Shown here piece after piece: positions 6,880 through 46,509 of a DNA stretch of 64,000 bases. Position 1 is the stretch's first letter. Each line of letters opens with the position of its first letter. The position numbers and the translations under genes are program-made. The notes under the pieces are model-generated. The model saw nothing but the letters and a program-made list of their open reading frames with translations, was not told the DNA's origin and ran no database searches. The stretch comes from Squalus acanthias (lineage: Eukaryota), in NCBI GenBank assembly GCA_030390025.1, contig CM059432.1:26972001-27036000 (forward strand), given 5' to 3'.

Positions 6880-7520
6880 ATTTGGCTGGTCCTCCAGCTC
6901 TGCGCTGGAAGTTAACAGGAGTTGGGAGGACTGGAGGGCTAGGCCCCGGCCCCGGCCCCGGCCCGCCGGACGTCACCTCTTGTCGCTTCCCGCCCCCAAT
7001 CGACAACCTCCTCGGCTCGCGTGGTGCACGCCGGGAAAGGGGAGCCGCCATATTTCTTCCGCAGATTCGTCAGAAAGTGGAAAAATTTTTTTTTTTTAAT
7101 TTTAATATAATGACGGCTCTTCGGTTAATATCTAAATATAATTAGAATTCTAACCAGATGTATTTATATCGGCACTCATGGATCAGCGAACTCCAGGTGA
7201 GGTACGGCGACCGGGCCATTTTCCTTTCCTTCTCTTGTGTTTTTGAAAGGTAAAAGTAGCGCGAGCTGCCAGCTGAAGCGAGTTCAAACCAACAAATCTT
7301 TCCGAGCGGCTCGCCCGATTTTTAAAAAAAAAGTTTGCTCTTAATTGTTCGCGATAAATAATTTTTTTAAAAACCGAAATGTAAAAGTTCGGGCGAATAT
7401 TTAAAAGAAAATGTCAACGGGCGCCTGTCAACTGTCGGCCGTAGTTTGATTGGCAGCTGTCCCGCGGCGCGGATTGGCTGAAGCGACCGCTGAGCCCCGC
7501 CTTCCTGGGCTCGGCACACG
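6880..7520 (+). promoter_or_regulatory. ZFAT CpG-rich promoter / exon 1 region
   Basis: High CpG density; (CCCCGG)n GC boxes at ~6943-6967; TTCCCGCC and CCAAT at ~6988-7000; YY1-type CCGCCATATT at 7045-7054; reverse CCAAT (ATTGG) at ~7449 and ~7473; CCCCGCC at ~7495. Confidence 0.75.
7178..7196 (+). CDS. ZFAT: ZFAT coding exon 1 (MDQRTP + first base of E)
   Basis: ATG GAT CAG CGA ACT CCA G followed by the donor GTGAG at 7197. It lies in the CpG-rich promoter region, is phase 1 and joins exon 2 in frame. It parallels the recalled human N-terminus METRAAE. Confidence 0.8.
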
Positions 7521-7679
7521 GTGTCACTCAGGGGACATTGTCACTGCCCCTCTGCTGCTCTCCAATTGCTCCCCTCCTTCATTAGCTGCTCCCATCTGCA
7601 GGAGGGACTCTGAACAGCAGTGGCAGCATCAGTAATAAGTAAACTGGGTGTAAAAATCTGGTGAAAGACCTGAACACAA

Positions 7680-11705: not shown

Positions 11706-12103
11706 ACATGAGGCTTGGACCTCATAGAAGCGATAACAGGCAGGCAAGTGGGCTCTACCCACCCACCGTCTGTTTTGCGGCAGATGTTAAAGTTGGACCC
11801 AGTGTCTTCAGGAAAGGTGGGGAAAGCTCTTTCTGACACCTCGTAATCATGGAACCCATTGTAACCATGGCCCTGATATTTACGGGCCCTTGCGTTCGGA
11901 GAGCTGGGAGAGGAGTTATGGACGGGAAACCTGGCAGTTTTTAACTGCAGGACGCCTTTTAAATTTTTTCTGCAGGTTTCCCGCCTGTCAGCTGGCCAGC
12001 CTAGATTTCCAAATAACATGCAAATAAGCTTTGATAAAATAACTTGTATCAAATCTTCTGTAGCTAACTATTTTTGCTTTTTCTTTTATCTCCCATTGAC
12101 CAG

Positions 12104-12274
12104 AGCTGGTTTCCATCTTCATGTGCAAACTGTGTAACCTGTTTTCCCCAAGCCGAGGTGAGTTACTAACTCATGTCTCCGAGAAGCATGCAGAGGAAGG
12201 CCTGGCTCCAGATGATCTCATTGTCCCGTTACGGCCTCTTCCCGCACCTGAAAAGTCTGAGAGAAACGAAGAAG
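12104..12274 (+). CDS. ZFAT: ZFAT exon 2 (first C2H2 finger)
   Basis: CTAAC branch point at 12064, pyrimidine tract and CAG acceptor. Translates as ELVSIFMCKLCNLFSPSRGELLTHVSEKHAEEGLAPDDLIVPLRPL..., matching ZFAT IFMCKCCNLFSP...HVSEKH...PLRPL. Donor G|GTAGG; 171 nt. Confidence 0.95.
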
Positions 12275-15200
12275 GTAGGGGCCCAAAATAACCTGACTAG
12301 CTGCATCCACTCACGTATCTACTTCTGAATAATAAGTTTTCTCTCCATATGTTAAGGCAGTGAATGATAGTGCTGCTAGATCTTAGAGGCAGTTTGATTC
12401 ATCTACCCAGCCTATTAGGAGTCCAGCACTGAATTGAAGAATCAAAGTGGAGTAAAAATTAGTGCAGCATTGAGGATCGGCTACTAGATGCCGCGAGCAT
12501 GCTTTGTAACCATGGTATAATGAAGCACTGCCATACATAGAACCCTTTTCACACATTTGCCTGTTGGAAACTACTAAATTATTTGGTGCTGTGTCATTGC
12601 AAGAGCTAAAGTTTGAACCATTTATAGTGAGCTGACCTGTATAGACCCAATTTGTTCAGTGTTGTAATCAGACAAGTAGCTCAGCTGTTTATGGAATTGG
12701 ATATTACAGGCAACTTCTATTTCCAGGAAATTGCATTGATCTAATGGTTGGGGAGGGCTGCAGTGCATTTCAACACTGAACACAATCTTCTGAAACCGTG
12801 AGTTCTCTGTGAAAAAAGAATTGGGTAAATATATGTTTAGGAATCAGCTTGATGATCAGAATGTCAAGTAGATAATTGCATACTCCAGAGAACACAGAGC
12901 TGCTTCGAACAACAAAGTGCCATCAGTGGCCAAGAAACAGTGAGGGTTGAAAAGTGGGATAGCTATTGTAGCTTCCTTTGATTATCATTGAGATCATAAA
13001 CTATACTGCACTCAACAGATTAAATGTATGGTGGAGTCTATGGTAGAGTTGGTGCTTTGTGGAATGGGCAAGCTTTTCTGATTCTAGACTTTTACCAGAT
13101 CTTTACATTTATTAGACTAGTGAAGTATTAGGCATTATATTTTCTGTTGGTTTATGCCCCACATGCATCTCTTTGTGTAGTGCAAAGCAAACAGAAAATG
13201 TTGCAAGGAGTAACATTAAACTGTTTCCCACCTCATTTTCCGGGACATCTGTTTGGCAGACTCCTGGAAATGAACTCGCTCATTGAATTTGGACCTTTTT
13301 GACAGCAGCCAGAAGGCCTCGAAGTCGGCAGGTATTTGTACTGCTGCAGCGAGCGAGTGAGCGCCCTTGCATTTATAGGGGTGTTTCTGCACCTGCAGGG
13401 AAAGTAGGGCGCGATAATGAATTGAACCCAAACCCATAGCTATGGCGGTATTCTGCAAGACATGCTCGAATGGAGAAGAAGGGGGGAAAAAGCCTGCCCC
13501 CATGGTAACAGGTAACTGTTTAATTTTGGCTGTGAACTATATAATCTGGACAAAAATATGTAGCGCTTCAATGGCTACTGTGGTTCTTAAATACCATTTT
13601 AAAAACCGGCAGCGAAGGCATTCAATCGGTTAATCCTTGCTTTGGAGGTGAGGGCACTGTTGGCTGACCTCATGGCAGCTGATGGAGATGTCCCATTGCA
13701 CAGTTGTGGCATTCTATCACTTTGGAGGTCCGAGCACAATGGTGTCCATGGAAGCAGCATGGAATAGTTCCTCCTTTCCTTCACTGAGCAGAAAAGTGAA
13801 AACCATCGGCTGTTGTGACTGCACAGTACAGTTTGGGAGAGTTCATTCATTTGTTCACTGACCAGACAAGCAAATGGCATCAGCTTCCATGAAGGTCAAT
13901 AAATGAATGAACTCTGCTACACTGTATATTTTATAAGAAAGAACCTGCATTTATATAGCGCCTTTCACAACCTCAGGACATCTCAAAGTGCTTTACAGTC
14001 AATTAACTACTTTTGAAGTGTAGTCACTGTTGTAATGTAGGGAAACACAGCAGGCAATTTGTGCACAGCAAGCTCACACAAACAACAATGAAATAAATGC
14101 CCAGATCATCTGTTTTGGTCATGTATTAACCTATCCATTGTCATTTCTGTTAGGTGTGATTCCAAAATATTGAACAGTAAGTTGCCCTTTTTTTAATGAG
14201 ACTGTGTTCATCATGATTTGCTCAACAAGATGACAGTAAGGAAGGTTGTCCAATTGGGGTTAATTTCAGCATTGTAGTTTGAGTCAATGTTGCCATGCTG
14301 CGCTGCTGGTGAGGAGCCTCGCTCAAAGGGAAAACGAACTGGAGAATCGGACTCCAAGATCTGTGCAATTCATGAGGCTCCAATGATCAATTACAAGAAA
14401 ATTGGGAGTGTTGCAAATCATTTGAGCTCATGACCTCTGTGTCTGATTCTCCAATCCATGCTTCCAGGAGTGCAGCCTTGCAGAAGTTACCCTATGGTTT
14501 CAAATGCTGTGGCTAGGTTAGTTGTACAAGTCTGAAGTGCCAATTCCACCATCCTGGAGAAAAAGACCCAGAGATCATGGTGTAAGCCACATACTCAGCT
14601 TGTACAGTGGGGAGCCGAGCTCACTGGATTAACTTGAGCATTTTCTACGTGTGCAAGCGAACACTGCGGTTGCAAGTGGCAACACTTGCCGGGAAAGTCC
14701 TTGGTTATTTTTCTGATCGGCAGCCATAACTTCAGCAGAAAGTTGCTGGAAACCCCGTTTACACATCTGTCTGGGGTCTCCGCCGAGCTTCCACCAAAGC
14801 TATGATGACCGACCAGGGCAATCCCCAAGGAAATTCCCGGCATTTGGCTTTAAGTAGACGAGGTGTTGGGGTGTGCTGCAGTAACTTTAAAGATCTTGCC
14901 AAGGGCCAGATGACAGTGCTGGCCTCTTCGATGAAGAGGTGCAGGATGTGCTGCTAGAGGTACAACAGAGGAAGGTCTGAGGTTCTTAACATTTGATTGT
15001 AACAAGGGGTGCACTCCAGTGCCCAGGGTGTGTACCTATCTTGCAGTGCATGCATCTTTAAATAGCTTACAATACAAGCTGGCTGCTCTTCATAAGGTCA
15101 ACTCCATTGTGACATCGGCTTGTGTGAAAGAATTACTATAAGTGCGCCATTGGGATGGGATTACAGAATATAGTAAACTGACACAATACCTGTGTATTGT

Positions 15201-15773
15201 GGAAAATCAGTCCTGTGTTGTGAATCCAAACCTGTGGCTCTTTATCAGTGAACAGTTCCATTTTCTGGCCCTCAACTGTTGTAAGTGGTAAGCCTGCCAC
15301 CCTTCGTATATATTCACTTGAAAAATAAAACGCTTTCACTAACAACAGTGACTGCAGAGGCTTCAGATTAAACTCAGCTCTTGGGATTTTCATTTAAACC
15401 AAGCTACCTGAAGGTTTTCAGTTTAACTGTTGAAGGGAGCTGCATTGGAGAAATTTCAGACCATCTACCAGTTACTTGACTGACCAGGAAAGTTTGAGAG
15501 CTTTAATGGGTACAAATTAGGTGGGTTGCCCTTAAGTCTTTATATTATCATAAGGAAAATAAGATAAACACAATTAGTAATGCGCAATTTCAAATTTCTG
15601 TAAACTAACATGGGAACAGGTACTGTGTCTTATCCGAGACGTTACCAGTGCAGCAGCATGCCCATGTGGTTGCCTCCTCTTTTTCCACTGATTAATTTAC
15701 CTAACAGAAATGCCACTAATTAGGCGAGGATGGCATTGATGAACACTAGTGCCTAATAAGGCAGCAGTGTCAC

Positions 15774-15917
15774 GCTGATGTCACAATTAGTGCCAAATAT
15801 ATCCTAAAACATACCATATCTGGGCCCCAGAAACTCGCTGTGCAAGTGAGCTAAGCTGATGTCACAATGGAGTTGACGTTGTGAAGAGCAGCCAGCTTGT
15901 GTTGTAAGCTATATAAA
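15774..15917 (+). promoter_or_regulatory. Promoter of the protamine-like gene: CRE-like elements and TATA box
   Basis: 14-bp direct repeat GCTGATGTCACAAT at 15774-15787 and 15855-15868, containing CRE-like TGATGTCA; TGACGT at 15874-15879; TATATAAA at 15910-15917. Confidence 0.75.
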
Positions 15918-15978
15918 GATGCAAGCACCTCAAGATAGGTACACACCCCGGGAACATCAAGCTCGAACGAACATAGCG

Positions 15979-16074
15979 ATGGGTTGCGGCAAACGACCTC
16001 AAAGACGAAAGCGCCGTAAATGTAAACGTCGCAAGATTATCAAAAAAAAATGCGGCAGCAGCAAGCGAAAATGA
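15979..16074 (+). CDS. Protamine-like (scylliorhinine S4-like) sperm nuclear basic protein, 31 aa, nested in ZFAT intron 2
   Basis: MGCGKRPQRRKRRKCKRRKIIKKKCGSSKRK followed by TGA TAA. It has 10 K, 8 R and 3 C, and a strong Kozak context GCGATGG. TATA lies upstream and AATAAA downstream. The GC start and KCKRRK..KKKC recall dogfish protamine S4 (sequence recalled from memory). Confidence 0.85.
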   Translation: MGCGKRPQRRKRRKCKRRKIIKKKCGSSKRK

Positions 16075-16193
16075 TAAGATGGTCGTATAGTAACAGGGCC
16101 AGACAAGAAATATAAACAAGAAACAGAACTGACTGTTATTGCAAACGTCTACTGGCCTGGAAGACAACCTGTTTCATCGCTGAAATTTTTTAC

Positions 16194-16222
16194 TGTACCA
16201 CATCATTGTACAGCAAAATAAA
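16194..16222 (+). terminator. Polyadenylation signal of the protamine-like gene
   Basis: AATAAA at 16217-16222, preceded by two TGTA motifs (16194, 16207), ~140 nt after the stop codon. Confidence 0.7.
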
Positions 16223-16601
16223 ATACTCAAGTAGCTTGAGAGTTCAAAATGAATTCTAGTATGCATTTTTCTAAGTGTTTTTAGATTAGTCACATATTAT
16301 GTTCAGCAAATAGATCCAGAATATTGATTCTTCATTTAGACTCAAATTGTTGCACACCACCAATGTCCCCTTTGTGTTAAAGAACTGGCACCATTGACCG
16401 CCTCAGCTTGGGGGTAGTAACGCTGTAACATAAATTGAGGTTTCACGATCACCAATAGAGGAAAGCTGAACCAAATCTGGAGATAGCTTTCCTAGACTCC
16501 TCCAGAGATGCACCGTGGCGATGGCATACAAGAATGGTTGCCACTGTCATTAGATGCTCCAGCTTACTGGTCAGCAACATGAGAACTGCGAAAAGCCTCT
16601 G

Positions 16602-16958
16602 GTCAGAAAGTGAGAGTGACAGGCTGGGGTGTCAGTCAGAGTGAGAGTGACAGGCTGGGGTGTCAGAAAGTGAGAGTGACAGGCTGGGGTGTCAGTCAGA
16701 GTGAGAGTGACAGGCTGGGGTGTCAGAAAGTGAGAGTGACAGGCTGGGGTGTCAGAAAGTGAGAGTGACAGGCTGAGGTGTCAGAAAGTGAGAGTGACCG
16801 GCTGGGGTGTCAGTCAGAGTGAGAGTGACAGGCTGGGGTGTCAGTCAGAGTGAGAGTGACAGGCTGGGGTGTCAGAAGAGTGAGAGTGACAGGCTGGGGT
16901 GTCAGAAAGTGAGAGTGACAGGCTGGGGTGTCAGAAAGTGAGAGTGACAGGCTGGGGT
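16602..16958. repeat. Minisatellite, 12 units of 29-31 bp
   Basis: GTCAG(AA/TCAG/AAG)AGTGAGAGTGACAGGCTGGGGT repeated 12 times. Confidence 0.95.
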
Positions 16959-18075
16959 TTTTTTAGTTGTTGGTGTGGCGGAGTCCATCCAGCAGTATAA
17001 AATGGAGCGGATTCCAAAGCATAAGGAGCCCTAGAAATTTGGCAGAACTGGCTCGAATAGAAAGAAAAGAAAGAGCTTGCATTTGTGTAGCATCTTTCAC
17101 CTCTTCAGTCTGTCCCAAATTCCTTCACAGCCAATTAATTACTTTGGAAGTGTAGACACTAATATATACAAATGTGGCAGTCAATTAACATGTGGCAAGC
17201 TCCTTACAAACAAGCAATGAGATAAATCACTGGTTAGTCTGTTTTGGGGTTGTTGATTGAGGTATAAATGTTAGCCAGGAGGTTGCCTTGTAGTTCTTTG
17301 AATGCTGTTGTTTTACATCCACCTGAACAGGCAAATGGTTATAATGTCACAAAAAAAATGCAAGCAGTCCTGGAATTTAAAAGGGTGTATTAAAGTCGGG
17401 TTCAATTAGGTTAATTGAAAAGGCACTTGCATGGCATGAGCGAAAAAAGGGCAGTGAGTGGCAGTGTTGTTAAAGGATTCTAAGACAGCACTAAAACGCT
17501 AGGATTACAGATCAGCCATGATCTAATTGAATGGTGGGACAGGCTCGAGGGGCTGAATGGCCTACTCCAGTTCCTATGTTCCTTAGGGCATTGCATTAAG
17601 AAGGAATCTATATGGATAGAGTTAAGAGTTAGGAATGGAATTAGTACAATCTCTGGTGTGCGTGCCAGGCCACCAAACAGTGAATACAAGGAGAGATCTG
17701 CAGACAGTTCAGAGGGATATGTAAGATCAACTGGGTATTAATATTGGGCAATTTTAGCTATACCAAGATAGACTAGAATAAAGATAATCCAGAAAATGCT
17801 GGAAATACTCAGCAGATCAGACAGCATCTGTGGAGAGAGAAACAAAGTTAACGTTTCAGGTTGATGACCCAAAAGGTCATCGGCCGAAAACGTTAACTTT
17901 GGCCCAGGATTTGCGGTCAGTGGCAAAGCAACAGCGCTTGCCACTGACCTCGAAGAAAGCTGCCCACAAAGATCTAGTGATCTCTGTGGCATGAATTTCT
18001 CCCCTCTCGACATTAATTTCATTCTGGCTCCAAGTCAAGGGAATCTCCAGTGTGCAACAACAGTGATGTCATCAA

Positions 18076-18328
18076 AACAACAACAGAAAACGCTGGAAAA
18101 ACTCAGCAGGCCAGGCAACATCCGTGGAGAGAGAAACAGAGTTAACGTTTCAGGTCGAAACCCTTCGTCAGAACTGAGAAAAGAGCAGAAATGAAACAGA
18201 TAAAAATGCAAGGGGGAGGCTGGGGGGAGGAATAACTATGGTAAGTAGAGACATTAAGAGATGCTCAAGGCAAGACGAGATGGTAATGGGACAGGTTAAG
18301 AAACAAAAGGTGAAGTGTGAAATGCTGG

Positions 18329-18370
<42 letters not shown>

Positions 18371-20169
18371 GTGGCAGGGGCCGAGGTTATGATCTGAAAT
18401 TGTTGAACTCGATATTGAGTCCGGAAGGCTGTAAAGTGCCTAAACGAAAGATTATGCTGAGCTTCCGTGGAACAATGCACGAGGCCGAGGACGGTGAGGT
18501 CTGAGTGGGCGTGGAGAGGTGAATTAAAATGACAAGCGACCGGAAGCTCGGGGTCACCCTTACGGACTGAACGGAGGTGTTCCGCAAAGTGGTCACCCAA
18601 TCTGCGTTTGGTCTCCTCAATGTAGAGGAGACCACATCGTGAGCAGCGAATACAGTATACTAGATTGCAAGAAGTACAAGTAAATCGCTGTTTCACCTGG
18701 AAGGGGTGTTTGGGGCCCTGGAGAGTGGGAAGGGGGGCTGTATAAGGGCAGGTGTTGCATCTCCTGCGCTTGCACGGGAAGGTGCCGGGCGAGGGGGAAG
18801 GGGTGCTGGGGGTGATAGAGGAGTGGACTAGGGTGTCTCGAAGGGAGCGGTCCCTACGGAATGCTGAAAGGGGAGGTGAGCGGAAGATACGTTTGGTGGT
18901 GGGATCACGTTGGAGGTGGCGGAAATGGTGGAGGATGATCCGTTGAATGTGGAGGCTGGTGGGGTGAAAGGTGAGGACAAGGGGAACTCTATCGTGGTTC
19001 CGGGAGGGAGGGGCCGGGGTGAGGGCAGAAGTGCGGGAGATAGAACGGACACGGTCGAGGGCCGTGTCAACCACGGTAGAGGGGAATCCTCGGTTGAGGA
19101 AAAAGGAAGACATGTCGGAAGCACTGGTATGGAAGGTGGCATCGTCGGAGCAGATGCGGCGGAGACGGAGAAACTGGGAGAAGGGAATAGAGTCCTTACA
19201 GGAGGCGGGGTGGGAGGAAGTGTAGTCCAGGTAGCTGTGGGAGTGAGTGGGCTTGTAGTGAATGTTGGTCAATAACCTATCCCCAGAGATGGAGACGGAG
19301 AAGTCGAGGAAGGGAAGGGAAGAGTCGGAGATGGACCATGTGAAGGTGAGGGAAGGGTGGAAATTGGAGGCAAAGTGAATGAAATTGTTTAGTTCAGGGC
19401 GAGAGCAGGAAATGGCACCGATACAGTCGTCAATGTACCGGAAAAAGAGGTGAGGGAGGGGACCCGAGTAGGACTGGAACAAAGAGTGTTCCACATATCC
19501 CACGAAAAGGTAGGCATAGCTAGGACCCATGCGGGTACCCATAGCAACACCTTTGATTTGGAGGAAATGAGTGGAGTCAAAGGAGAAGTTGTTCAATGTG
19601 AGAACAAGTTCAGCCAGGCGGAGGAGGGTGGTGGTGGATGGGGACTGGTTGGGCCTCTGTTCAAGGAAGAAGCGGAGCGCCCTCAGGCCATCCTGGTGGG
19701 GGATGGAGGTGTAGAGGGATTGTACGTCCATGGTGAAAAGGAGGCGGTTGGGGCCAGGAAACTGGAAACTGTTAAAGTGGCGGAGGGCATCAGAGGAATC
19801 GCGGATGTAGGTGGGAAGGGACTGGACAAGGGGAGAAAAAATAGTGTCGAGATAGGAAGAGATAAGTTCCGTGGGGCAAGAGCAGGCTGAAACGATGGGT
19901 CTACCAGGGCAGTCCTGTTTGTGGATCTTGGGAAGGAGGTAGAAGCGGGCTGTGCGGGGTTGGGGAACTATGAGGTTGGCGGCTGTGGGGGGAAGATCTC
20001 CAGAGGAGATGAGGTCAATGACAGTCTTGGAAACGGTGGCTTGATGTTCGGTAGTGGGGTCATGGTCCAGGTGGAGGTAGGAGGAGGTGTCGGAGAGTTG
20101 GCGCTCAACTTCCGCAGGTAGAGGTCGGTTCGCCAAACAACAACAGCGCCACCCTTGTCAGCAGGTTTA
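18076..20169 (-). mobile_element. Penelope-like retroelement (RT and GIY-YIG endonuclease, Neptune-type), 5'-truncated
   Basis: KPADKG, LPKIHK, DVQSLYTSIP, GVAMGTRMGP, RYIDD, Cys linker CKRRRCNTC, VYCIRCSRCGLLYIEET; 10-bp TSD ATGTCATCAA at 18066-18075 and 20170-20179. Confidence 0.93.
18140..18175 (-). ncRNA. Minimal hammerhead ribozyme at the Penelope 3' end
   Basis: Minus strand reads AGUU-CUGACGA-A-GGGU(UUCG)ACCU-GAAA-CG-UU-AACU. Confidence 0.8.
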
Positions 20170-20760
20170 ATGTCATCAAGCTGGCTAAGCAGCTAATCAC
20201 ATTGAAAAATTCTCTCAGACAGCAAACCAGGAAGTAAAATGCACTTAATTAATCATTTTACAGAGAGCAAAATAAAGTTTGGGACATACACATGGGATTA
20301 AGGTAGAAGCTGAAATAACAAACTTTAAAAAAAAATTATATTAAAAACCATATTAAAAATTTGACTTTTCACAAATATTGAATTAGTTTTTCAGGGCTAG
20401 AACTGTTGTTCAGCAGTCAGTATGCTATTAAAACCCCAGTTACACCTCCTTTTGACGAGGCTTAACATTTTCGGGGGGTTTTAAGAGCAATATTCCAGCA
20501 TAATAGGGGAAATTTTCATCAGTTCAGTGTGATTTGAATTGATTGCGGGCTCCGGGGAGTTCCACAGCTCAGCCTGTGGAGGAGCAGGGAATGACTGACA
20601 GCAATTTCTGGATTTTCACATTTATCATGTGCGGACTCCAGAAGTTGCTATCCGTTTCAGAGGAGTAATGACAGCGAACGCTGACAGTTTTGCCGTCATT
20701 ACCACCGTAAAATCTGGGCCATTGTTTCTCTCTCCACAGATGCTGCCTGGCCTGCTGAGT

Positions 20761-23652
20761 AAGGATCTTCGCTCCAAAAATCAAGAAATAGAATCAGTTT
20801 GGGTGGAGCTAAGAGACAGCAAGGGGCAGAAAACATTGGTGGGAGTTGTTTATAGGCCCCCAAACAGTAGTTGTAATGTAGGGCAGAGTATAAATCTGGA
20901 AATTAGAGGCACATGTAACAAGGGTAATACAGTAATCATGGGGGACTTTGATCGACATATAGACTGGGCAAGCCAAATTTGCAGTAATACTGTGGAGGAC
21001 GAATTCATGGAATATATGCAAGATAGTTTTCCAGATCAGTATGTTGAGGAACCAACTAGGGAACAGGCTATTTTAGATCTAGTATTGCGCAATGAGAAAG
21101 GGTTAATTAATAACCTTGTAGTAAAGGGGCCTTTAGGGAAGAGTGACCATAATATGATAGAATTTTATATTGAGTTTGAAAGTGATTTAGTTAAATCCGA
21201 AACTAGGGTCTTCAATTTAAACAAAGCAAACGATGTAGGTATGAGGGGCGAGTTGGCTAAGGTAGATTGGGAAACTACATTAAAAGGTATGATGGTAGAG
21301 AAGCAGTGGCTAGCATTTAAATAATTAATACATAATTTACAACAAATATACATTCATTTAAGGCACAATTGGGAGGATTTTAGAATTCAGCAAAGGAGGA
21401 CCAGGAAATTGATAAAGAAAGGGGAAATAGAATATGAGAGTAAACTAGCGAGAGACATAAAAACAGACTGTAAAAGCTTCTATAGTTATGTAAAAAGGAA
21501 AAGATAAGCAAAAGTAAATGTGGCTGAGACAGGAGAAATTATAATGGGGAATAAGGAAATGGCAGAGAAATTAAACAAATACTTTGTGTCTGTCTTCACG
21601 GAAGAAGACGCAAAAACTTCCCAAAAATAGTGGAGAACCAAGGGTCTAGCGAGAATGAGGAACTGAAAGAAATTAGTATTAAAGCCGTACTGGAGAAATT
21701 AATGGGACTGAAAGCCGATAAATACCCTGGACCTGATGGCCTACATCCTAGGGTTTTGAAAGAGGTGGCTATAGAGATAGTGGATACATTGGTTGTCATT
21801 TTCCCAAATTCCATAGATTCTAGAACAGTTCCCATGGAAGCAAATATAACCCCACTATTTAAGAAAGGAGGGAAAGAGAAAACAGGGAACTACAGTCCAG
21901 TTAGCTTGACATCAGTAGTAGGGAAAATGCTACAATCTATTATTAAGGACGTGGTAACAGGGCACTTAAAAAATAATAATAGGATTGGGCAAAGTCAACA
22001 CGGATTTATGAAAGGGAAATCATGTTTGACAAATCTGTTGGAGTTTTTTGAGGTTGTAACTAGCAGAATAGATAAGGGGGAACCAGTGGATGTGGTGTAT
22101 TTGGATTTTCAGAAGGTATTCGATAAGATGCCACACAAGAGGTTATTAAACAAAATTAGGGCTCATGGGATGAGGGGTCATATACTCGAATGGATTGAGG
22201 ATTGGTTAATGGACAGAAAACGGAGAGTAGGAATAAACGTGTTATTTTCGGGTTGGCAGGCTGTAACTAGTAGGGTACCACAAGGATCAGTGCTTGGGCC
22301 TCAGCTATTCACAATCTACATCAATGATTTGGATGAGGGGACCAAATGTAACATATCGAAGTTTGCTGATGATACAAAGCTGGGTGGAAATGTAAGTTGT
22401 GAGGAGGCTTCAAGGGGATATAGACAAGTTAAGTGAGTGGGCAAGAACATGGCAAATTAAAGAAATGTGAAGTTATCCACTTTGGTAGGAAAAATAGAAA
22501 AGCAGAATATTTTTTAAATGGTGAGATTGAGAAAATGTTGGTGTTCAGAGGGACTTGGGTGTCCTTGTACATGATTCACTGAAAGTTAACATGCAGGTAC
22601 AGCAATCAATTAGGAAAGCAAATGGTATGTTGGCCTTGAGTATAAGTGTAAAGACGTCTTACTGCAATTATATAGGGCCCTGGTGAGACCACACCTAGAG
22701 TATTGTGTACAGTTTTGGTCTCCTTACCTAAGGAAGGATATACTTGCCATAGAGGGAGTGCAACGAAGGTTCACCAGACTGGTTCCTGGGCTTGGGGGGA
22801 TTGTCCTATGAGGAGAGATTGAGTAGACTAGGCCTATATTGGCTTGATTGACACCCCATCGACCACCTTAAAAATTCACTCCCTCCACCACCGGCATACC
22901 GTGGCTGCAGTGTGTACCATCTACAAGATGCACTGCAGCAACTCGCCAAGGCTTCTTCGGCAGCACCTCCCAAACCTGCGACCTCTACCACAAGGACAAG
23001 GGCAGCAGGCGCATGGGAACAACACCAGCTCCAACTTCCCCTCCAAGTCACTCACCATCTTGACTTGGAAGTATATCGCCGTTCTTTCATCGTCGCTGGG
23101 TCAAAACCCTGGAACTCCCTCCCTAACAGCACTGTGGGAGTACCCTCACCACACGGACTGCAGCGGTTCAAGAAGGCGGATCACCACCATCTTCTCAAGG
23201 GCAACTAGGGATGGGCAATAAATGCTGGCCTTGCCAGCGACGCCCCCATCCCATGAATGGATTAAAAAAAAATTCTGTAGAGTTTAGAAGAATGAGAGGT
23301 GATCTCATTGAAACATACAAAATTTTTACAGGGCTTGACAGGGTAGATGCAGGGAGGCTGTTTCCCCTGACTTGGGAGTCCAGAACCACGGCTCACAGTC
23401 TCAGAATAAGGGGTCGGCCATTTAGGACTGAGATGAGGAGAAATTTCCCGTAGGGCTGTGGAGGCTCAGTCGTTGAGTATATTCAAGACAGAGATCGATA
23501 GATTTTTTAATATTAAGGGAATCAAGGGATATGGGGATAGTGCAGGAATGTGGAGATGAGGTAGAAGATCAGCCATGATCTTATTAAATGGCGGAGCAGG
23601 CTTGAAGGGCCAAATGGACTACTCCTGCTCCTATTCCTTATGTTCTTATGTG
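20761..23652 (+). mobile_element. CR1 LINE ORF2 (EN-RT) with 3' tail; family A tail inserted at 22841-23271
   Basis: VYRPP, GDF, SDH, PGPDG, YLDFQK.FD, VPQGSVLGP, KFADD; (TGTTCTTA)n tail; the inserted piece ends in poly(A). Confidence 0.92.
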
Positions 23653-24604
23653 TATTTCCAGCATTTTCTGTTTTTATTTCCGATTTCCAGCATTTTTTTT
23701 ATTTGTTTATGGGATGTGGGCGTCACTAGCAAGGCCAGCATTTATTGCCCATCCCTAATTGCTCTTGAGAAGGTGGTGGTGAACTGCCGCCTTGAACTGC
23801 TGCAATGGTGATGGTACTCCCACAGTGCTGTTAGGGAGGGAGTTCCAGGATTTTGACCCAGCGACGATGAAGGATGGGCGATATACTTCTAAGTCAGGCT
23901 GATGTGTGACTTGGAGGGGAACTTGGAGGTGTTGGTGTTCCCATGCGTCTGCTGCCCTTGTCCTTCTAGGTGGAAGAGGTCGCGAGTTTGGGAGGTGCTG
24001 CTGAAGAAGCCTTGGCAAATTGCTGCAGTGCATCTTGTAGATGTTACACACTGCAGCCACTGTACTCCGGTGGTGGAGGGAGTGAATGTTTAAGGTGGTG
24101 GATGGGATGCCAATCAAGCGGGCTGCTTTGTCCTGGATGGTGTTGAGCTTCTTGTGTTGTTGGAGTTGCACTCATCCAGGCAAGTGGAGAGTATTCCATC
24201 ACACACCTTACTTGTACCTTGTAGATGGTGGAAAGGCTTTGGGGAGTCAGGAGGTGAGACACTCGCTGCAGAATACCTAGCCTCTGACCTGCTCTTGTTG
24301 CCACAGTATTTATGTGGCTGGTCCAGTTAAGTTTCTGGTCAATGGTGACCCCCAGGATGTTGATGGTGGGGGATTTGGCGATGGTAATGCCGTTGAATGT
24401 CATGGGGAGGTGGTTAGACTCTCGCTTGTTGGAGATAGTCATTGCCAGGCACTTAAGTGGCAGGTAACATTCGCGCCACAGATCAGCCCAAGCCTGAACG
24501 TCGTCCAGGCCTTGTTGCATGCGGACATGGACTGCTTCATTATCTGAGGAGTTGTAAATGGCGCTGAACCGTGTGCAGTCATCAGCAAACATCCCCATTT
24601 CTGA

Positions 24605-24988
24605 AATAACAACAGAAAACGCTGGAAAAACTCAGCAGGCCAGGCAGCATCCGTGGAGAGAGAAAGAGAGTTAACGTTTCAGGTCGATGACCTTTCATCA
24701 GAACTGTGAAGAGCCGGAAATCAAATAGATTTAAGGCCAGAGTAAAGCTGGGAAAAGGGGGAGGGGATAAAAGAACAAAGGGGGAGATGAAGAGACATTA
24801 AGAGACATTAAGAGATATGCAAGGCTAGAGGTGGTGTAAATGTGACAGATTAAGGCTGAAAGAAGTGTGAAATCCACTGGCAGAATGAAGGACAGCTGCC
24901 AGCTTCTAGGAGGAAAAAAAAAGGTGGGGGGGTGCAAATAAAAGGGTGGAAAAAATAAAATATAAATGTGATTGGAGCTGAGGTTATG
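24605..24988 (-). mobile_element. Solo Penelope 3' terminal segment
   Basis: Matches 18076-18390; 14-bp TSD ATCCCCATTTCTGA at 24591-24604 and 24989-25002. Confidence 0.88.
24669..24705 (-). ncRNA. Minimal hammerhead ribozyme
   Basis: Minus strand reads AGUU-CUGAUGA-A-AGGUC(AUC)GACCU-GAAA-CG-UU-AACU. Confidence 0.8.
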
Positions 24989-26659
24989 ATCCCCATTTCT
25001 GACCTTATGTTGGAGGGAAGGTCATTGATGAAGCAGCTGAAGATGATTGGGCCTAGGTCACTGCCCTGAGGAACTCCTGCAGCTATGTCCTGGGGCTGTG
25101 CTGTTTGACCTTCAACCACCACAACCATCTTCCTTTGTACTAGGTATGAATCCAGCCAGTGGAGTGTTTTCCCCCCAATTCCCATTGACTTCAGTTTTAC
25201 TAGGGCTCCTTGATGCCACACTCGGTCAAATACTGCCTTGATGTCAAGGGCAGTCACTCTCACCTTACCTCTGGAATTCAGCTCCTTTGTCCATGTTTGG
25301 ACCAAGGCTGTAATGAGGTCTGGAGCCGAGTGGTCTTGGCGGAACCCAAACTGGGCATCAGTGAGCAGGTTTTTGGTGAGTAAGTGCTGCTTGATAGCAC
25401 TGTTGATGACATCTGCAGTATTTTGCTCCTGTAAAGGTAATCCATGTGGTGTAAGTGGGGAATCCTTTTTAGAATGCATTTAATCCATCAAGGAAAGAAG
25501 CATTGCTTGATTTAGTTCAGGGAAATTAAGTGGAGCAACTGTAATAGTATGAGAAACATTTAGAAACTAGTAACCATAACACAGCTAGGTTCAATTTAAG
25601 AATAGAAAAGAATAACAATGAGCCAAAGATAGTGGTGCTGGAATGGAAAAAGGCAAAATCCAGCGAGATAGAAAGACCTGGGCTAAATTGACAGGCAGAA
25701 AAGTTAGCAAACAGGTAGCACAAATGGCCAGGTCAGCAGCGGGAACTCTTCAAATAAGAAATGAATAAAGTACAAAATAAATATGTTTCTTTAAGGCAAA
25801 AAGGGTCAATGAATGAAGTTCTGTGGATAAATAGTGAGATTAAAACTAAACTGAAACTTAAAAGGGAGGGCTAACAATATTAGGATAATCGAGAAATATA
25901 GAAAGTGTAGTCGGGAGGGCATTAGAAGGGTTAAAGGGGAAAATGAAAAAAAGACTCGTAGATAAAAGAAAGTACAAGGGCTTTACAAGCTTTTGGAAAG
26001 TAAAAGAATAGTTAAAGAGAGGAGGGAGTCTAATTGTGGAGAATGAAGGTGCCTTGCTTCCGTACATGTAGTGACTAGGTTAAAACTGAAAATGCATTGT
26101 TATATCAACAGTATCCAGTGCTTATGCTCCTAAAACCTTTTCATTTACAATTTACCATCAGACTCGATGGGCCTAATGGCCCTTCTGTGTTGTACTATTC
26201 TGTGAAAATCGTGACAGCAAGAAATAAGGTTCAGTCGGCAGGAATTATTGGCACAATTAAATATACATACATTGTGTTCACAAATGAGACCCGGGAGTTA
26301 AAATCCTGGGGGTCCAGATGGTTTCACACTCTCATCGGCCTTTGCACCCCCGATTCTCACCCCAAGTTAAAATCAGGACTAATAAGTTTAACTGTGTAAC
26401 TCTATTATTCCATCTGGTCTGCACAGATTGTCTTAAACCGAGTGCATCTAAACCGTGTGTAAAAGTTGGGAATTAGGTGCAGTAGAAGGAGATGCTGCTT
26501 TTGCCTCCAATACTTGTAGTGGTTTGTGTTGAAGGTAAATATTTAATTTCATCTATCTATAATTTAAACAAGATCAAGTAATTAGTTAAAAAACTAAACT
26601 TTAAGTTAATTAAATACATAAACTTTAATTAATTAATTAAATAAATAAAACAAGCTTAT

Positions 26660-29937: not shown

Positions 29938-30059
29938 GTACAAAATGTTCTTAAGGTGCTGTCTCATCCCCGTTCATTATAGTGCCGAAACATTAGCCAC
30001 AGTCTAAGTAATCATGGACAATTCTGACTGTTCTGTCTCGTAACTCAATTTTAATTTAG

Positions 30060-30329
30060 CGACAGTAACTGTGAAGAGGAAGAGGGGAAGACCCAAAGGT
30101 TCAAAGAAGAAATTCTACGCTGAAGCAGAGGAGTTGGGAGATGCCGGTAATTGCAATCTGAGTGCAGAGAGTACACTTGACCAAGAAGAGGAGGAGTTGG
30201 AGGAGTCTGATAGTTTGGACTGCAGGAAGTGCAGTCGGAAATTTTCGAACAGGAGGCAGCTGCGGAAACACCGCTGCTTTGTTGTACTGAAGGACGATGG
30301 GGAAGAAGAAGAAGAAGAAGCAGAAGATG
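30060..30329 (+). CDS. ZFAT: ZFAT exon 3 (AT-hook and C2HC-type finger)
   Basis: TTTAG acceptor; AT-hook KRKRGRPKGS; CRKCSRKFSNRRQLRKHRC; acidic runs; donor G|GTAATA. 270 nt, phase 1-1. Confidence 0.93.
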
Positions 30330-39705: not shown

Positions 39706-40377
39706 TAACAACAGAAAACGCTGGAAAAACTCAGCAGGCCAGGCAGTATCCGTGGAGAGAGAAACAAGAGTTAACGTTTCAGGTCTTCATCAGAACTGGA
39801 AAAAGCTGGAGATGTAACAGATATTAAGCAGGTGCAGAGACAGGGGGGAGGGAGGAATTGAAGGAATATACTGTGCTTTTGTAAGAGGCAGGAAAGATAA
39901 AATGTTGCAAATGGGAATGGCAAAATCATAAAGCATGAAAAATGGGAGCAGGGGTTATAGTTTGAAATTGTTGAACTCTATGTTGAGTCCAGAAGGCTGT
40001 AAAGTGCCTAATCGAAAGATGAGGTGCTGTTCCTCGAGCTTACATTGCGCTACATTGGAACAGTGTAATAGGCCGAGGACAGAGAGATCAGAGTGGGAGT
40101 GAAGCGGAGAATTAAAGTGACAGGCAACCAGAAGCTCAGGGTCACCCTTACGGACTGAACGGAGGTGTTCCGCAAAGCGGTCGCCCAATCTGCGTTTGGT
40201 CTCCCCAATGTAGAGGAGACCGCATCGTGAGCTGCGAATACAGTATACTAAATTGCAAGAAGTACAAGTAAATCGCTGTTTCACCTGGAAGGGGTGTTTG
40301 GGGCCCTGGACAGTGGGAAGGGAGGAGGTAAAAAAGCATGTGTTGCATCTCCTGCGCTTGCACGGGAAGGTGCCAGG
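39706..40377 (-). mobile_element. Penelope 3' fragment (GIY-YIG and terminal repeat)
   Basis: VYCIRSSRCGLLYIGETKRRLGDRFAEH..GLN; 17-bp TSD AGAAGGATAAATTGTTA at 39689-39705 and 40378-40394. Confidence 0.9.
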
Positions 40378-41174
40378 AGAAGGATAAATTGTTAGTCCAT
40401 TTGCTCATAGTTGTCAATGATGATTAACTTAATTATAGTTGTTAACTATACTTTAATGTCGATGCTGGTTCTGTCATCAAATATAGAAATTGTGACTGCT
40501 TCTGGAATTTTCTGACATCTGGTGCCTGAATAAAATCAGAAATAGTAGGCCTAGGTTTTCGGATTGTAAATAGGTTACTGTTGACGTTACAATTGGAAAA
40601 TCTAGGCTGTGATGTCTAATGTCTGTTACGAACAGAAATCTGATTAATTTGGTGACTAGTTTCCATTGTTAACACTATTGTATATACAAGCAGTTTTTTT
40701 TGTTAGCCAATCTGAGAGAATAGTTTATCAAGTACTTTTCAAATGTCAACTGAGTTTCTGACGATCTTGACATCCGAAAGAACCATTGCAATGCATTTTA
40801 TAGAGAATTGGTTAAAATGGGAATGGGAATGATTTAGTTGACTTCAGTTGGCACACCAATTAGGGCACTACTTTTGCCCTCCATGTTCTCAGGCTAAGGA
40901 GAGCAAAAGTTGGCCAGGTTCCTGCTCCAGTGATTCTGCTGGAACGTGCAAGGGTCTGGATTGGTGGGGGAGGGGTGTGGGGGGACAGGATTGAACTTTG
41001 CTGTAATGCCCCCTACCTGCCAACCGTCAAATAAACTATTGCCATCCATGGTCAAATAATAGTCTGTCTAGGTCCACACATGGAGAATGGCCACTTGGGT
41101 GAGGAGCCCATGGATGTACCCCAGCATGAGTTAGTCGTAGACCTCTTTGACTTCAAGAGAGAAGAGGAATGGAG

Positions 41175-41527: not shown

Positions 41528-41649
41528 TAAAGTAACAGACTAAAAAATTCAAAGGGGGAATCATTAGCAAAGTTTCTGCTATACAGTGCCAATCGAAAGG
41601 TCCTATACATAGGCTGAAAACTCACAAGAGAATTTTTCTGTTCTTTCAG

Positions 41650-43031: not shown

Positions 43032-43369
43032 GTAAGAAATAGTCTATAATGACATTGTTAAATTTATTTGTTGAAAACTTTATCTTTAACATGCCAAAAT
43101 GCATTTAGATTTGTTTTTGATTGTACAACTGTTACAAAATGTTCCTTTTTCTGAGGGAGGAAACTGGAATCATCTGGGCTGTAATATTCTCAACATCTTT
43201 CATCAGATGTACAAATAGAAAAAAACAAGTTCTATTTTGGTATGGTGCAGATTGAGGTCTGGGGTTGCTTGTACAGTTTTGGACTGAAAAATCTGTGTTT
43301 TTGAGTCCTGAAATGTAAATGGGATACCAAAAGTCCTCCGGGTTGATTTTGACTTTTGGGCAACCGACC

Positions 43370-45768: not shown

Positions 45769-46186
45769 TGTCTGTCTCTCTGTCTGTCTCTCTGTCTGTC
45801 TCTCTCTCTGTCTGTCTCTCTGTCTGTCTGTCTCTCTGTCTGTCTGTCTGTCTCTCTGTCTGTCTGTCTGTCTGTCTCTCTGTCTGTCTGTCTCTCTGTC
45901 TGTCTCTCTGTCTGTCTGTCTCTCTGTCTGTCTGTCTCTCTCTGTCTGTCTGTCTCTCTGTCTGTCTGTCTCTCTGTCTGTCTGTCTCTCTGTCTGTCTG
46001 TCTCTCTGTCTGTCTGTCTCTCTGTCTGTCTGTCTCTCTGTCTGTCTGTCTCTCTGTCTGTCTCTCTGTCTGTCTCTCTGTCTGTCTCTCTGTCTGTCTC
46101 TCTGTCTGTCTCTCTGTCTCTCTGTCTGTCTCTGTCTGTCTCTCTGTCTGTCTCTCTGTCTGTCTCTCTGTCTGTCTCTCTGTCTG

Positions 46187-46227
<41 letters not shown>

Positions 46228-46450
46228 CTCTCTCTGTCTGTCTCTCTCTCTGTCTCTCTCTCTCTGTCTGTCTCTCTCTCTCTCTGTCTGTCTCTCTCTC
46301 TCTCTGTCTGTCTCTCTCTCTCTCTGTCTGTCTCTCTCTCTCTCTGTCTGTCTCTCTCTCTCTGTCTGTCTGTCTGTCTGTCTCTCTCTGTCTGTCTCTC
46401 TCTCGCTCTCTCTGTCTCGCGCTCTCTCTGTCTCGCTCTGTCTCTCTCCC
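45769..46450. repeat. (TCTG)n/(TC)n compound microsatellite
   Basis: Direct inspection; source of the spurious SLSVC/RERQT ORFs. Confidence 0.97.
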
Positions 46451-46509
46451 CCTCCCTCCGTCGGGCCCTCTCTCTCCCCCCCCCCCCCCCCCCCCACCCC
46501 TCCGTCGGG

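What the first reader, a model, noticed from the sequence alone, without database searches (positions are those of the whole stretch)
15774..16222. Hidden intronless protamine-like gene nested on the same strand inside ZFAT intron 2
Seen in sequence: a compact, complete transcription unit in non-repetitive DNA. It has a duplicated GCTGATGTCACAAT, TGACGT, TATATAAA (15910), a strong Kozak GCGATGG (15979), a 31-aa ORF MGCGKRPQRRKRRKCKRRKIIKKKCGSSKRK with a double stop, and AATAAA (16217). The peptide is 58% K+R with 3 Cys, and the ORF keeps many CpGs in a CpG-poor neighbourhood. Established knowledge: elasmobranch sperm use Cys-containing 'keratinous' protamines (scylliorhinines). The S4 peptide as I recall it (GCKKRKARKRPKCKKARKRPKCKRRKVAKKKC) shares the GC start and KCKRRK-xx-KKKC. 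Inference: this is a functional S4-type sperm protamine gene that annotation pipelines would miss because it is tiny and nested.
Basis: partly seen in the sequence, partly recalled or inferred. Interest (0 to 1): 0.92.

Follow-up and report, generated by a model that had tools for sequence, protein, structure and literature searches.

The report
Unannotated shark sperm protamine gene
A tiny, complete gene hidden inside an intron of the shark ZFAT gene encodes a 31-residue lysine/arginine/cysteine-rich peptide that closely matches a catshark sperm protamine, so it most likely helps pack sperm DNA.

Summary
The unit is single-copy, non-repetitive DNA in ZFAT intron 2, on the ZFAT strand.

The 31-aa ORF is a clear outlier. 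Its K+R is 58%, against 35% for the next independent ORF among 785 in the window. Its CpG o/e is 1.95, against 0.41 for the window.

PMC8856603 prints the same string as UniProt P30259, a catshark sperm protamine. By hand alignment, both peptides start with GC. A 12-residue block is 10/12 identical, 17 of 23 aligned pairs match, and the cysteines are collinear. Composition-matched shuffles reach 10/12 in 38 of 40,000 trials.

Contigs of three public runs cover the 3' part of the unit. One RNA-like run of a related species does so at depth 12,000-25,000. Tissue, strand and coverage of the 5' half of the ORF are not shown.

Verdict: most likely a functional, unannotated S4-type (Lys/Cys-rich) protamine gene, confidence about 0.72. 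It is a new member of a known kind. It differs from the catshark protein in having one KARKRPKCK-type unit instead of two, and a GSSKRK tail.

The parts
15774..15787 (+). Distal copy of GCTGATGTCACAAT. It contains the CRE-like octamer TGATGTCA, about 165 nt upstream of the inferred start.
   Evidence: direct repeat D2, 2 exact copies 81 nt apart. A regulatory role is inferred.
15855..15868 (+). Proximal copy of GCTGATGTCACAAT (CRE-like TGATGTCA).
   Evidence: It is also present in the inverted promoter copy with one mismatch.
15874..15879 (+). TGACGT, a CRE half-site-like motif.
   Evidence: It is changed to TGACCT in the inverted copy. Function is inferred.
15910..15917 (+). TATA box, TATATAAA.
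   Evidence: It reads TATTTAAA in the inverted copy.
15943..15978 (+). Inferred 5' leader. The start is placed about 30-35 nt after the TATA box, at a CA. It is CpG-rich (4 CpG in 15941-15978, o/e 1.46).
   Evidence: The position is inferred from the TATA box and no read shows the 5' end. In the related genome X4, two 4-nt deletions (at 15921 and 15964) lie in or just before this leader. They put the upstream ATG at 15919 out of frame with the ORF (table 4).
15979..16077 (+). Coding sequence of 31 codons, MGCGKRPQRRKRRKCKRRKIIKKKCGSSKRK, plus the double stop TGA TAA. The start context is GCGATGG.
   Evidence: K+R outlier. CpG o/e 1.95. Similarity to catshark protamine P30259 as printed in PMC8856603. 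Codons from 16042 onward are covered by the X3 contig and from 16055 by the X1 contig. X4 has a 3-nt in-frame deletion at 16056.
16078..16246 (+). 3' untranslated region. The end is inferred at a CA 24 nt after the AATAAA.
   Evidence: Contigs of X1 (16055-16311), X2 (16095-16225, depth 12,271-25,000) and X3 (16042-16193) lie here. It folds at -36.7 kcal/mol, z -2.34, and 4 of 200 shuffles fold as well. No Rfam family matches it.
16217..16222 (+). Poly(A) signal AATAAA.
   Evidence: A T/GT-rich stretch follows at 16262-16283 (read). No poly(A) tail was seen in any contig.
15019..15121 (-). Inverted 103-nt copy of the core promoter: the 14-mer, TGACCT, TATTTAAA and about 12 nt past the inferred start. 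It is about 90% identical to 15853-15955, and no basic ORF follows it.
   Evidence: It is also present in the related genome X4. Its role is unknown.
12104..12276 (+). Context: ZFAT exon 2, the upstream border of the host intron. Exon 1 carries the ATG at 7178.
30059..30301 (+). Context: ZFAT exon 3 (AT-hook exon), the downstream border of the host intron.

Best explanation
This is a functional, single-copy, apparently intronless gene of about 300 nt for a small sperm nuclear basic protein. It belongs to the lysine-rich, cysteine-containing protamine type known from catshark sperm (UniProt P30259; 'scylliorhinine S4' by recall). It is nested in intron 2 of ZFAT on the same strand.

Proposed mechanism (inferred):
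1. A TATA-box promoter with CRE-like elements fires in haploid spermatids.
2. The short mRNA yields a 31-residue peptide that loses its Met, giving an N-terminal Gly-Cys.
3. Its K/R clusters neutralise DNA phosphates and displace histones.
4. Its three cysteines form disulfide bridges that lock the condensed sperm chromatin.
5. The Ser-Ser in the C-terminal GSSKRK tail is a plausible phosphorylation site.

Shown here: the anatomy, the uniqueness of the DNA, the statistical oddity of the ORF, the similarity to the catshark protamine, and the presence of the 3' part in contigs of three public runs, one at very high depth.

Inferred: transcription start and end, strand of the RNA, tissue, translation and the chromatin role.
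For: (1) All promoter, ORF and poly(A) elements are present in the right order and spacing.

(2) The ORF is the extreme K+R outlier. It ranks first of 785 ORFs in the window. It is 1 of 2 among 2504 ORFs in 264 kb with K+R of 0.45 or more, and the other is a simple repeat. A 6-Mb simulation gave 0 such ORFs.

(3) CpG o/e is 1.95 in the ORF and 1.46 in the leader, against 0.24-0.51 in the flanks. Seven of 8 Arg codons are CGN (read). This fits selection on Arg codons or germline hypomethylation.

(4) Similarity to a real catshark sperm protamine printed in PMC8856603. By hand alignment both start with GC, a 12-residue block is 10/12 identical, 17 of 23 aligned pairs are identical, the Cys are collinear, and the composition is similar (K more than R, K+R 58% against 66%, Cys 10% against 12.5%). 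The composition-only null reaches 10/12 in 38/40,000 trials, in 26/40,000 with our peptide fixed, and in 1/40,000 jointly with the same first two residues.

(5) Contigs from 3 runs of 3 studies cover the 3' end of the ORF and the 3' UTR. X2 (RNA-like, related species, 90-95% alike) has depth 25,000, 25,000 and 12,271. The same stretch is single-copy in this genome and at flat depth of about 15.8 in the related DNA run X4. X3, a data set of only 0.63 million letters, holds it at depth 8. X1 holds it at depth 2.1, while two runs of the same study hold next to none of the sampled words.

(6) In the related genome X4, the shown indels in the leader are 4 nt and 4 nt, and the one shown in the ORF is 3 nt, so in frame.

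(7) No Rfam family explains the RNA.
Against: - No contig of the RNA-like runs covers 15940-16041, which is the leader and the first 21 codons. Transcription of the whole ORF is therefore not shown.
- The run kinds are the tool's guesses ('RNA?', '?'). Tissue and strand are unknown, and contigs cannot show ends.
- The X1 contig runs to 16311, about 65 nt past the inferred poly(A) site. The X2 contig ends at 16225 in adapter sequence without a poly(A) tail.
- In X4 the substitution density does not look lower in the unit than upstream. 21 substitutions are shown for 15316-15857. By my subtraction, about 33 of that contig's 54 fall later (15858-16481), but the table was truncated, so their places are not known.
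- The alignment with the catshark protein was done by hand, not by a tool.
- The peptide has one KARKRPKCK-type unit where the catshark protein has two. It therefore has 3 Cys rather than 4, and it carries 6 extra C-terminal residues.
- Sequence searches found no relative. The word and E-value limits for a 31-aa K/R-rich query make these blanks uninformative.
Confidence: 0.72

Rival explanations
1. The gene is real and expressed, but its small basic peptide is not a sperm chromatin protein. It could be a nuclear or nucleolar K/R peptide or an S4-like paralogue used in another tissue. On this view the resemblance to the catshark protamine reflects common descent or convergence without the same role.
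For: Tissue is unknown for every run. The peptide differs from the catshark protein in repeat number and in its C-terminal tail (hand alignment). No protein-level data exist here.
Against: The collinear match, including the N-terminal GC and the Cys spacing, is to a protein that the paper calls a sperm protamine. The depth of 12,000-25,000 in one RNA-like run fits the very high abundance of protamine mRNAs in testis, which is recalled knowledge. The TATA plus CRE-like promoter is of the type recalled for spermatid genes.
Confidence: 0.1
2. It is a relic, an S4-type gene that is no longer used in this lineage. It happens to keep an intact ORF, and the low-depth same-species contigs are ZFAT pre-mRNA or DNA carry-over.
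For: The same-species contigs are at low depth (X1 2.1, X3 8). X1 runs past the poly(A) site. The high-depth evidence comes from another species and does not cover the ORF. Divergence from the related genome X4 is not visibly lower in the unit.
Against: The ORF, start context, TATA box, poly(A) signal and 13 CpGs in 137 nt (15941-16077) are all intact in CpG-poor surroundings. In contrast, the inverted promoter copy has lost TGACGT and a CpG. X3 holds the stretch at depth 8 in a set of only 0.63 million letters, which a genomic or intronic background would not give for a single-copy locus in a 3.7-Gb genome.
Confidence: 0.08
3. The abundant RNA is a non-coding, structured RNA of about 130-150 nt made from 16087-16225, for example an orphan intronic small RNA. 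The basic ORF next to it is not part of it.
For: The X2 contigs cover only 16095-16225, and one ends directly in adapter sequence. The 3' region folds somewhat better than shuffles, z -2.34, with 4 of 200 folding as well.
Against: No Rfam match lies in the unit. All 5 matches in 15000-16900 have E above 1 and lie elsewhere or on the other strand. The X1 and X3 contigs extend upstream into the ORF, to 16055 and 16042. This reading leaves the ORF, its CpGs, its promoter and its match to a catshark protamine unexplained.
Confidence: 0.05
4. It is a chance ORF with chance motifs in an intron.
For: The ORF is short and basic, and no homologue was found by automated searches.
Against: On each of these separate counts chance is a poor fit. 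In addition, the stretch is held at high depth in an RNA-like run.
Confidence: 0.03

Closest known systems
Catshark sperm protamine UniProt P30259, as printed in PMC8856603 Table 1: GCKKRKARKRPKCKKARKRP-KCKRRKVAKKKC. By recall this is scylliorhinine S4 of Scyliorhinus canicula, sequenced as a protein in the 1980s.
   Same: About 30 residues, with an N-terminal Gly-Cys once the Met is removed. Lys exceeds Arg, and K+R is about 60%. The cysteines are spaced collinearly. The block KCKRRK-xx-KKKC is identical apart from VA against II. 17 of 23 aligned pairs are identical by hand alignment (null).
   Different: It has one KARKRPKCK-like unit instead of two tandem ones, so 3 Cys rather than 4. It has a GSSKRK extension after the last Cys. 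The host is a different shark lineage: the ZFAT exon is 97% identical to the sawshark Pristiophorus, against 88% to Scyliorhinus torazame. The catshark entry is given only as a peptide in what I saw. Its gene, promoter and locus were not available here.
Bony-fish and bird protamine genes (recalled: small, intronless, TATA-driven, mRNA of about 250-300 nt, expressed in spermatids and translationally delayed).
   Same: A compact unit with TATA box, short leader, ORF of about 30 codons, 3' UTR of about 170 nt and AATAAA. No intron is evident (no joints).
   Different: Those proteins are almost pure arginine and lack cysteine. This peptide is Lys-rich with Cys. No sequence similarity was tested or is expected.
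Eutherian protamine P1 (Pfam PF00260).
   Same: A small Cys-containing basic sperm protein stabilised by disulfides. The same working principle is inferred here. CRE-like promoter elements are recalled for Prm1.
   Different: No Pfam match at E up to 10. P1 is Arg-rich rather than Lys-rich, and its gene has an intron and lies in the PRM1-PRM2-TNP2 cluster (recalled). Here no other basic ORF lies within 200 kb upstream or 48 kb downstream.

Membership tests
Catshark S4-type Lys/Cys-rich protamine (UniProt P30259) | Mature peptide of about 30 residues starting with Gly-Cys | tested here: met
   One search gives 30 residues after Met, GC.... One search gives 32 residues, GC....
Catshark S4-type Lys/Cys-rich protamine (UniProt P30259) | Composition with Lys more than Arg, K+R about 60%, Cys about 10% | tested here: met
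   Hand counts. The window peptide has K10 R8 C3 of 31. The printed P30259 has K14 R7 C4 of 32.
Catshark S4-type Lys/Cys-rich protamine (UniProt P30259) | Collinear sequence similarity beyond composition | tested here: met
   Hand alignment: a 12-residue block with 10/12 identical, 17 of 23 aligned pairs identical, with one 1-residue gap and one 9-residue gap. Null: 38/40,000 composition-matched shuffles reach 10/12. No alignment program was run on the pair.
Catshark S4-type Lys/Cys-rich protamine (UniProt P30259) | Two tandem KARKRPKCK units, giving four cysteines | tested here: not met
   The window peptide has a single, diverged unit (…QRRKRRKCK…) and three Cys. I treat this as a copy-number difference within the family, not as an exclusion.
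Catshark S4-type Lys/Cys-rich protamine (UniProt P30259) | Protein present in sperm nuclei, with gene expression in spermatids | not testable with these tools
   Only contigs of runs of unknown tissue were available.
Catshark S4-type Lys/Cys-rich protamine (UniProt P30259) | Orthologous locus: the catshark gene also lies in ZFAT intron 2 | not testable with these tools
   No other shark genome could be searched here.
Protamine P1 (Pfam PF00260) | Match to the family profile | tested here: not met
   One search found 0 Pfam families at E up to 10. One search found no PF00260 match in the own genome, but the control rang nowhere, so that blank is weak.
Protamine in the general sense (P-type sperm nuclear basic protein) | Small size, very basic, encoded by a short spermatid-type transcription unit | tested here: inconclusive
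   Size, charge and gene anatomy are met. Arg is only 26%, lower than in classical protamines. The expression stage was not tested.

The most novel reading that the evidence does not exclude
The Lys/Cys-rich 'keratinous' protamine of elasmobranchs is encoded by a solitary orphan gene that sits inside ZFAT intron 2. It is unlinked to any arginine-rich protamine gene. It has been kept there since before the split of the two shark superorders (squalomorph-like host here, galeomorph catshark protein). If so, this protamine type arose independently of the protamines of bony vertebrates, perhaps de novo within the intron. The inverted duplicate of its core promoter 730 nt upstream would be part of its control.
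Probability: 0.25. Interest if true: 0.7.

Novelty: new member of a known kind. Interest (0 to 1): 0.58.

Why it matters
In everything I could see, the cysteine-containing protamines of sharks are known only as peptides. No paper in the library searched describes a gene, promoter or locus for them. No similar protein turned up in the protein collections searched, which do include annotated shark genomes.

A defined gene would make several questions testable:
- How disulfide-stabilised sperm chromatin arose in cartilaginous fishes as well as in eutherian mammals.
- Whether spermatid promoters of the TATA plus CRE type date back to the base of jawed vertebrates.
- How a very highly expressed gene co-exists with its host gene on the same strand.

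It is also a concrete example of a real protein-coding gene too short for standard annotation.

Tried and rejected
Protein and family searches that gave nothing:
The 51-aa extended ORF found no candidate sharing three 5-residue words. By my count the catshark protamine shares only two such words with the query, so this blank is expected.
- phmmer of the 31-aa peptide against 1.84 billion representatives gave 0 hits at E up to 0.001. Such a short K/R-rich query can hardly reach that E-value.
- Pfam gave 0 families for the 31-aa and 51-aa forms.
- PF00260 in the own genome gave none, but the control rang nowhere.
- ESM Atlas gave no usable hit.
- Exact look-up of both ORF forms found neither in the collection.
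- The codon-aligned antisense 103-aa frame, tried as a way to catch orthologues called on the wrong strand, gave nothing.

Searches of the own genome:
- The peptide found only itself.
- Relaxed tblastn and blastn of the ORF and 3' UTR over 264 kb found no second copy and no decayed ORF behind the inverted promoter copy.

Sequencing runs:
- No listed holder is on record as RNA.
- There is no cover of 15940-16041 in X1, X2 or X3.
- X5-X9 hold next to none of the sampled words. None of these blanks is evidence of silence.

Other checks:
- Earlier findings of this scan: 4 look-ups, nothing to show.
- Rfam at E up to 10 over 15000-16900 found nothing in the unit.
- Pol III small-RNA reading: rejected because the X2 contig reads through the T-run at 16186-16191.
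- N-myristoylation of MGCG...: rejected by hand against the recalled PROSITE pattern (Arg and Pro at disallowed positions).
- One paper search failed on term length and was not repeated.
- Literature searches for scylliorhinine or dogfish protamine text gave no sequence. The motif search did.
Full report
**1. What is in the sequence**

- GCTGATGTCACAAT at 15774-15787 and again at 15855-15868
- TGACGT at 15874-15879
- TATATAAA at 15910-15917
- an ATG at 15979 in the context GCGATGG
- a 31-codon ORF, MGCGKRPQRRKRRKCKRRKIIKKKCGSSKRK, closed by TGA TAA at 16072-16077
- AATAAA at 16217-16222

Downstream of the hexamer there is a CA at 16245-16246 and a T/GT-rich stretch at 16262-16283 (read). This is the usual layout of a vertebrate poly(A) site.

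An in-frame ATG at 15919 would give a 51-aa ORF. It lies 2 nt after the TATA box, so it should be upstream of the transcription start. I place that start by inference near the CA at 15942-15945. The predicted mRNA is then about 300 nt.

**2. Is it more than chance?**

- The 14-mer, allowing up to one mismatch, occurs three times within 850 nt. The expectation is 0.01, and 0 of 100 shuffles had three.
- Of 785 ATG-started ORFs of at least 25 aa in the window, this one has the highest K+R (0.58). The next independent ORF has 0.35.
- I fetched 200 kb upstream. In the resulting 264 kb, 2 of 2504 ORFs reach K+R of 0.45 or more. The other lies in a (GAA/GAG)n simple repeat.
- A third-order Markov simulation of 6 Mb gave no ORF of at least 28 aa with K+R of 0.55 or more.
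- The ORF holds 9 CpG in 99 nt (o/e 1.95) and the presumed leader has o/e 1.46. The flanks have 0.24-0.51 and the window 0.41. Only 1.2% of 99-nt windows have 9 or more CpG.
- Seven of the eight Arg codons are CGN.
- The DNA is unique. A search of the 3.71-Gb genome found only the unit itself and one short inverted copy of its promoter. The peptide found only itself. TRF found no tandem repeat inside the unit.

**3. Surroundings**

The large ORF at 41621-43042 is 97% identical to ZFAT of the sawshark Pristiophorus japonicus. It is 86-93% identical to ZFAT of other sharks, so the window comes from a shark.

Mapping that protein to the window and reading the junctions gives the following, all on the + strand:
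- exon 1, with the ATG at 7178 and a GT donor at 7197
- exon 2, at 12104-12276
- exon 3, from about 30059

A 103-nt inverted copy of the core promoter lies at 15019-15121 on the - strand. It is about 90% identical to 15853-15955. It carries the 14-mer with one mismatch, TGACCT instead of TGACGT, and TATTTAAA. The homology ends about 12 nt past the inferred start. No basic ORF and no copy of the 3' UTR follow it. I cannot explain this copy.

**4. Is it transcribed?**

I laid X1-X4 on 14600-16590. All four are contigs, so they cannot show strand, ends or expression level in the strict sense.

- X4 is a 2.7-billion-letter set, evidently genomic DNA of a related species. It covers the whole stretch at flat depth of about 15.8. 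One 1495-nt contig carries 54 substitutions and 32 gap letters over 15166-16481.
- X2 is RNA-like by the tool's guess and 90-95% alike, so it is another related species. It has three short contigs covering 16095-16225 at depths 25,000, 25,000 and 12,271. This stretch is single-copy in the window's genome and in X4. Such depth is hard to explain except by very high expression or targeted enrichment.
- X3 has only 0.63 million letters in 2967 records. It holds a 152-nt contig (16042-16193, one mismatch) at depth 8. A random genomic sample of that size would not do this for a single-copy locus.
- X1 has a 257-nt contig (16055-16311, no mismatch) at depth 2.1. Two runs of the same study hold next to none of the sampled words.

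The limits need stating as fully:
- No RNA-like contig covers 15940-16041.
- X1 runs about 65 nt beyond the inferred poly(A) site.
- The X2 contig ends at 16225 directly in adapter sequence, with no poly(A) tail.
- The tissue is unknown for every run.

In X4 the shown indels are 4 nt at 15921 and 4 nt at 15964. These lie in or before the leader, and together they throw the upstream ATG out of frame. A third indel of 3 nt at 16056 lies inside the ORF, where it removes one AGC (Ser) codon and keeps the frame. Six further indels and 38 substitutions were not shown, so I cannot measure constraint. By subtraction, the unit does not look more conserved than the upstream flank.

**5. Could it be a known non-coding RNA?**

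Rfam at E up to 10 gives five weak matches in 15000-16900. All have E above 1 and none lies in the unit on the + strand. The 3' UTR folds modestly better than shuffles (-36.7 kcal/mol, z -2.34, 4 of 200 as good). A Pol III small RNA is unlikely, because the X2 contig reads through the T-run at 16186-16191.

**6. Comparison with the known shark protamine**

Automated searches found nothing. For a 31-residue K/R-rich query these blanks carry little weight.

Searching the paper library for a motif of the window's own peptide led to PMC8856603. I read its Table 1 row and the surrounding passages. It prints UniProt P30259 'Protamine' as GCKKRKARKRPKCKKARKRP-KCKRRKVAKKKC. I take the hyphen to be a line break of the table. 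The text says the two protamine hits are sperm protamines 'from catshark and bat'. The name 'scylliorhinine S4' itself is recalled and comes from no call.

I aligned the two by hand:
- Both start with GC once the initiator Met is removed.
- The window's K14-C25, KCKRRKIIKKKC, matches the last twelve catshark residues, KCKRRKVAKKKC, at 10 of 12 positions.
- The alignment needs a one-residue gap and a nine-residue gap. The nine-residue gap is one of the two tandem KARKRPKCK units of the catshark protein.
- With those gaps, 17 of 23 aligned pairs are identical and the cysteines are collinear.
- Composition is alike: K10 R8 C3 of 31 against K14 R7 C4 of 32.

As a null I shuffled the window peptide against shuffles drawn from the catshark residue counts. 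A best 12-residue window of at least 10 identities arose in 38 of 40,000 trials. With the window peptide kept fixed it arose in 26 of 40,000. Jointly with identical first two residues it arose in 1 of 40,000. The observed value of 10/12 is my hand count.

The differences are one repeat unit instead of two (three Cys, not four) and a six-residue GSSKRK tail after the last Cys.

**7. Most likely explanation**

This is a small, single-copy, apparently intronless gene for a Lys/Cys-rich sperm nuclear basic protein of the catshark S4 type.

Inferred mechanism, drawing on recalled knowledge of protamines:
1. Transcription in haploid spermatids from a TATA promoter with CRE-like elements. CREM-dependent promoters of this kind are recalled for mammalian Prm and Tnp genes.
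2. A short, very abundant mRNA.
3. Removal of the Met.
4. Binding of the K/R clusters to DNA phosphates, with displacement of histones.
5. Disulfide bridges between the three cysteines that stabilise the condensed nucleus.
6. Possible phosphorylation of the Ser-Ser.

The anatomy, statistics, similarity and presence in runs are shown. The tissue, the RNA ends, translation and the chromatin role are not. I put this reading at 0.72.

The rivals are:
- an expressed basic peptide with another role (0.10)
- an unused relic (0.08)
- an abundant non-coding RNA next to an irrelevant ORF (0.05)
- chance (0.03)

**8. Novelty**

The protein type is known, so this is a new member of a known kind. What would be new is the gene itself: its promoter, its solitary position inside ZFAT intron 2, the single-repeat form with a C-terminal tail, and the inverted promoter copy.

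In the library searched I found no paper that describes a gene or locus for shark protamines. Subscription journals, where the original protein papers appeared, are not covered.

No other basic ORF lies within 200 kb upstream or 48 kb downstream. The gene is therefore not part of a protamine cluster within that range.

Of the papers cited, I read only passages found by term search: PMC8856603, PMC11607694 (background on cysteine-containing sperm proteins and the dogfish studies of Gusse and Chevaillier), PMC11083954 (0 occurrences of 'protamine') and PMC8812575 (general protamine biology). No supplements were opened.

Noticed in passing
window 15019-15121 (- strand): An inverted 103-nt duplicate of the unit's core promoter lies 730 nt upstream, about 90% identical. 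It has the 14-mer, a mutated TGACGT, TATTTAAA and the first nucleotides past the inferred start. No related ORF or 3' UTR follows it. It is also present in the related genome X4. Its role is unexplained.
   Followed up: partly
window 16602-16958: A tandem array of 12 copies of a 29-nt G-rich unit (GTCAGAAAGTGAGAGTGACAGGCTGGGGT) lies about 360 nt downstream of the unit. The copies match at 92-93%.
   Followed up: no
window 15703-15800: A cluster of TAATTA-type motifs in short inverted and direct repeats (CTAATTAGGC / GCCTAATAAG / AATTAGTGCCA) flanks the distal 14-mer. They could be homeodomain-type sites or chance.
   Followed up: no
window 16078-16205: The 3' UTR can form a long imperfect hairpin (GUAUAGUAACAGGGCCAG ... 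CUGGCCUGG ... UUACUGUAC), z -2.34. If real, it could serve translational delay, as is recalled for protamine mRNAs.
   Followed up: partly
window 14667-14867: A short repeated element. In the related DNA run X4 the depth rises to 159-382, against about 16-19 elsewhere, and many contigs diverge at its borders.
   Followed up: no
window 18268-20157 (- strand); also 39955-40404 (- strand): A 630-aa open frame of a retroelement. Its RVT_1 match is 24.5 bits, below the Pfam cut-off of 29.6. Its C-terminal Cys-rich 'LVYCIR..GLLYIGETKRRLGD' segment looks like a GIY-YIG nuclease, which would suggest a Penelope-like element. That is a recalled resemblance and was not tested. A related fragment lies at 39955-40404.
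   Followed up: partly
window 45672-47558: About 1.9 kb of low-complexity CT/GA-rich DNA is open in all six frames, with ORFs of 574-623 aa reading SLSVCLSV..., PPLSS... or RERGGG.... It lies in the ZFAT intron after the large zinc-finger exon.
   Followed up: no
window 6894-7561: A CpG-dense patch (two clusters of 99-nt windows with 9 or more CpG) surrounds ZFAT exon 1 (ATG at 7178). It is presumably the ZFAT promoter CpG island.
   Followed up: partly
L010 9470-9600 (G000 C8:26841470-26841600): A (GAA/GAG)n purine repeat reads as a 37-aa ORF with 86% K+R in one frame. It is a low-complexity look-alike, not a second basic-protein gene.
   Followed up: yes
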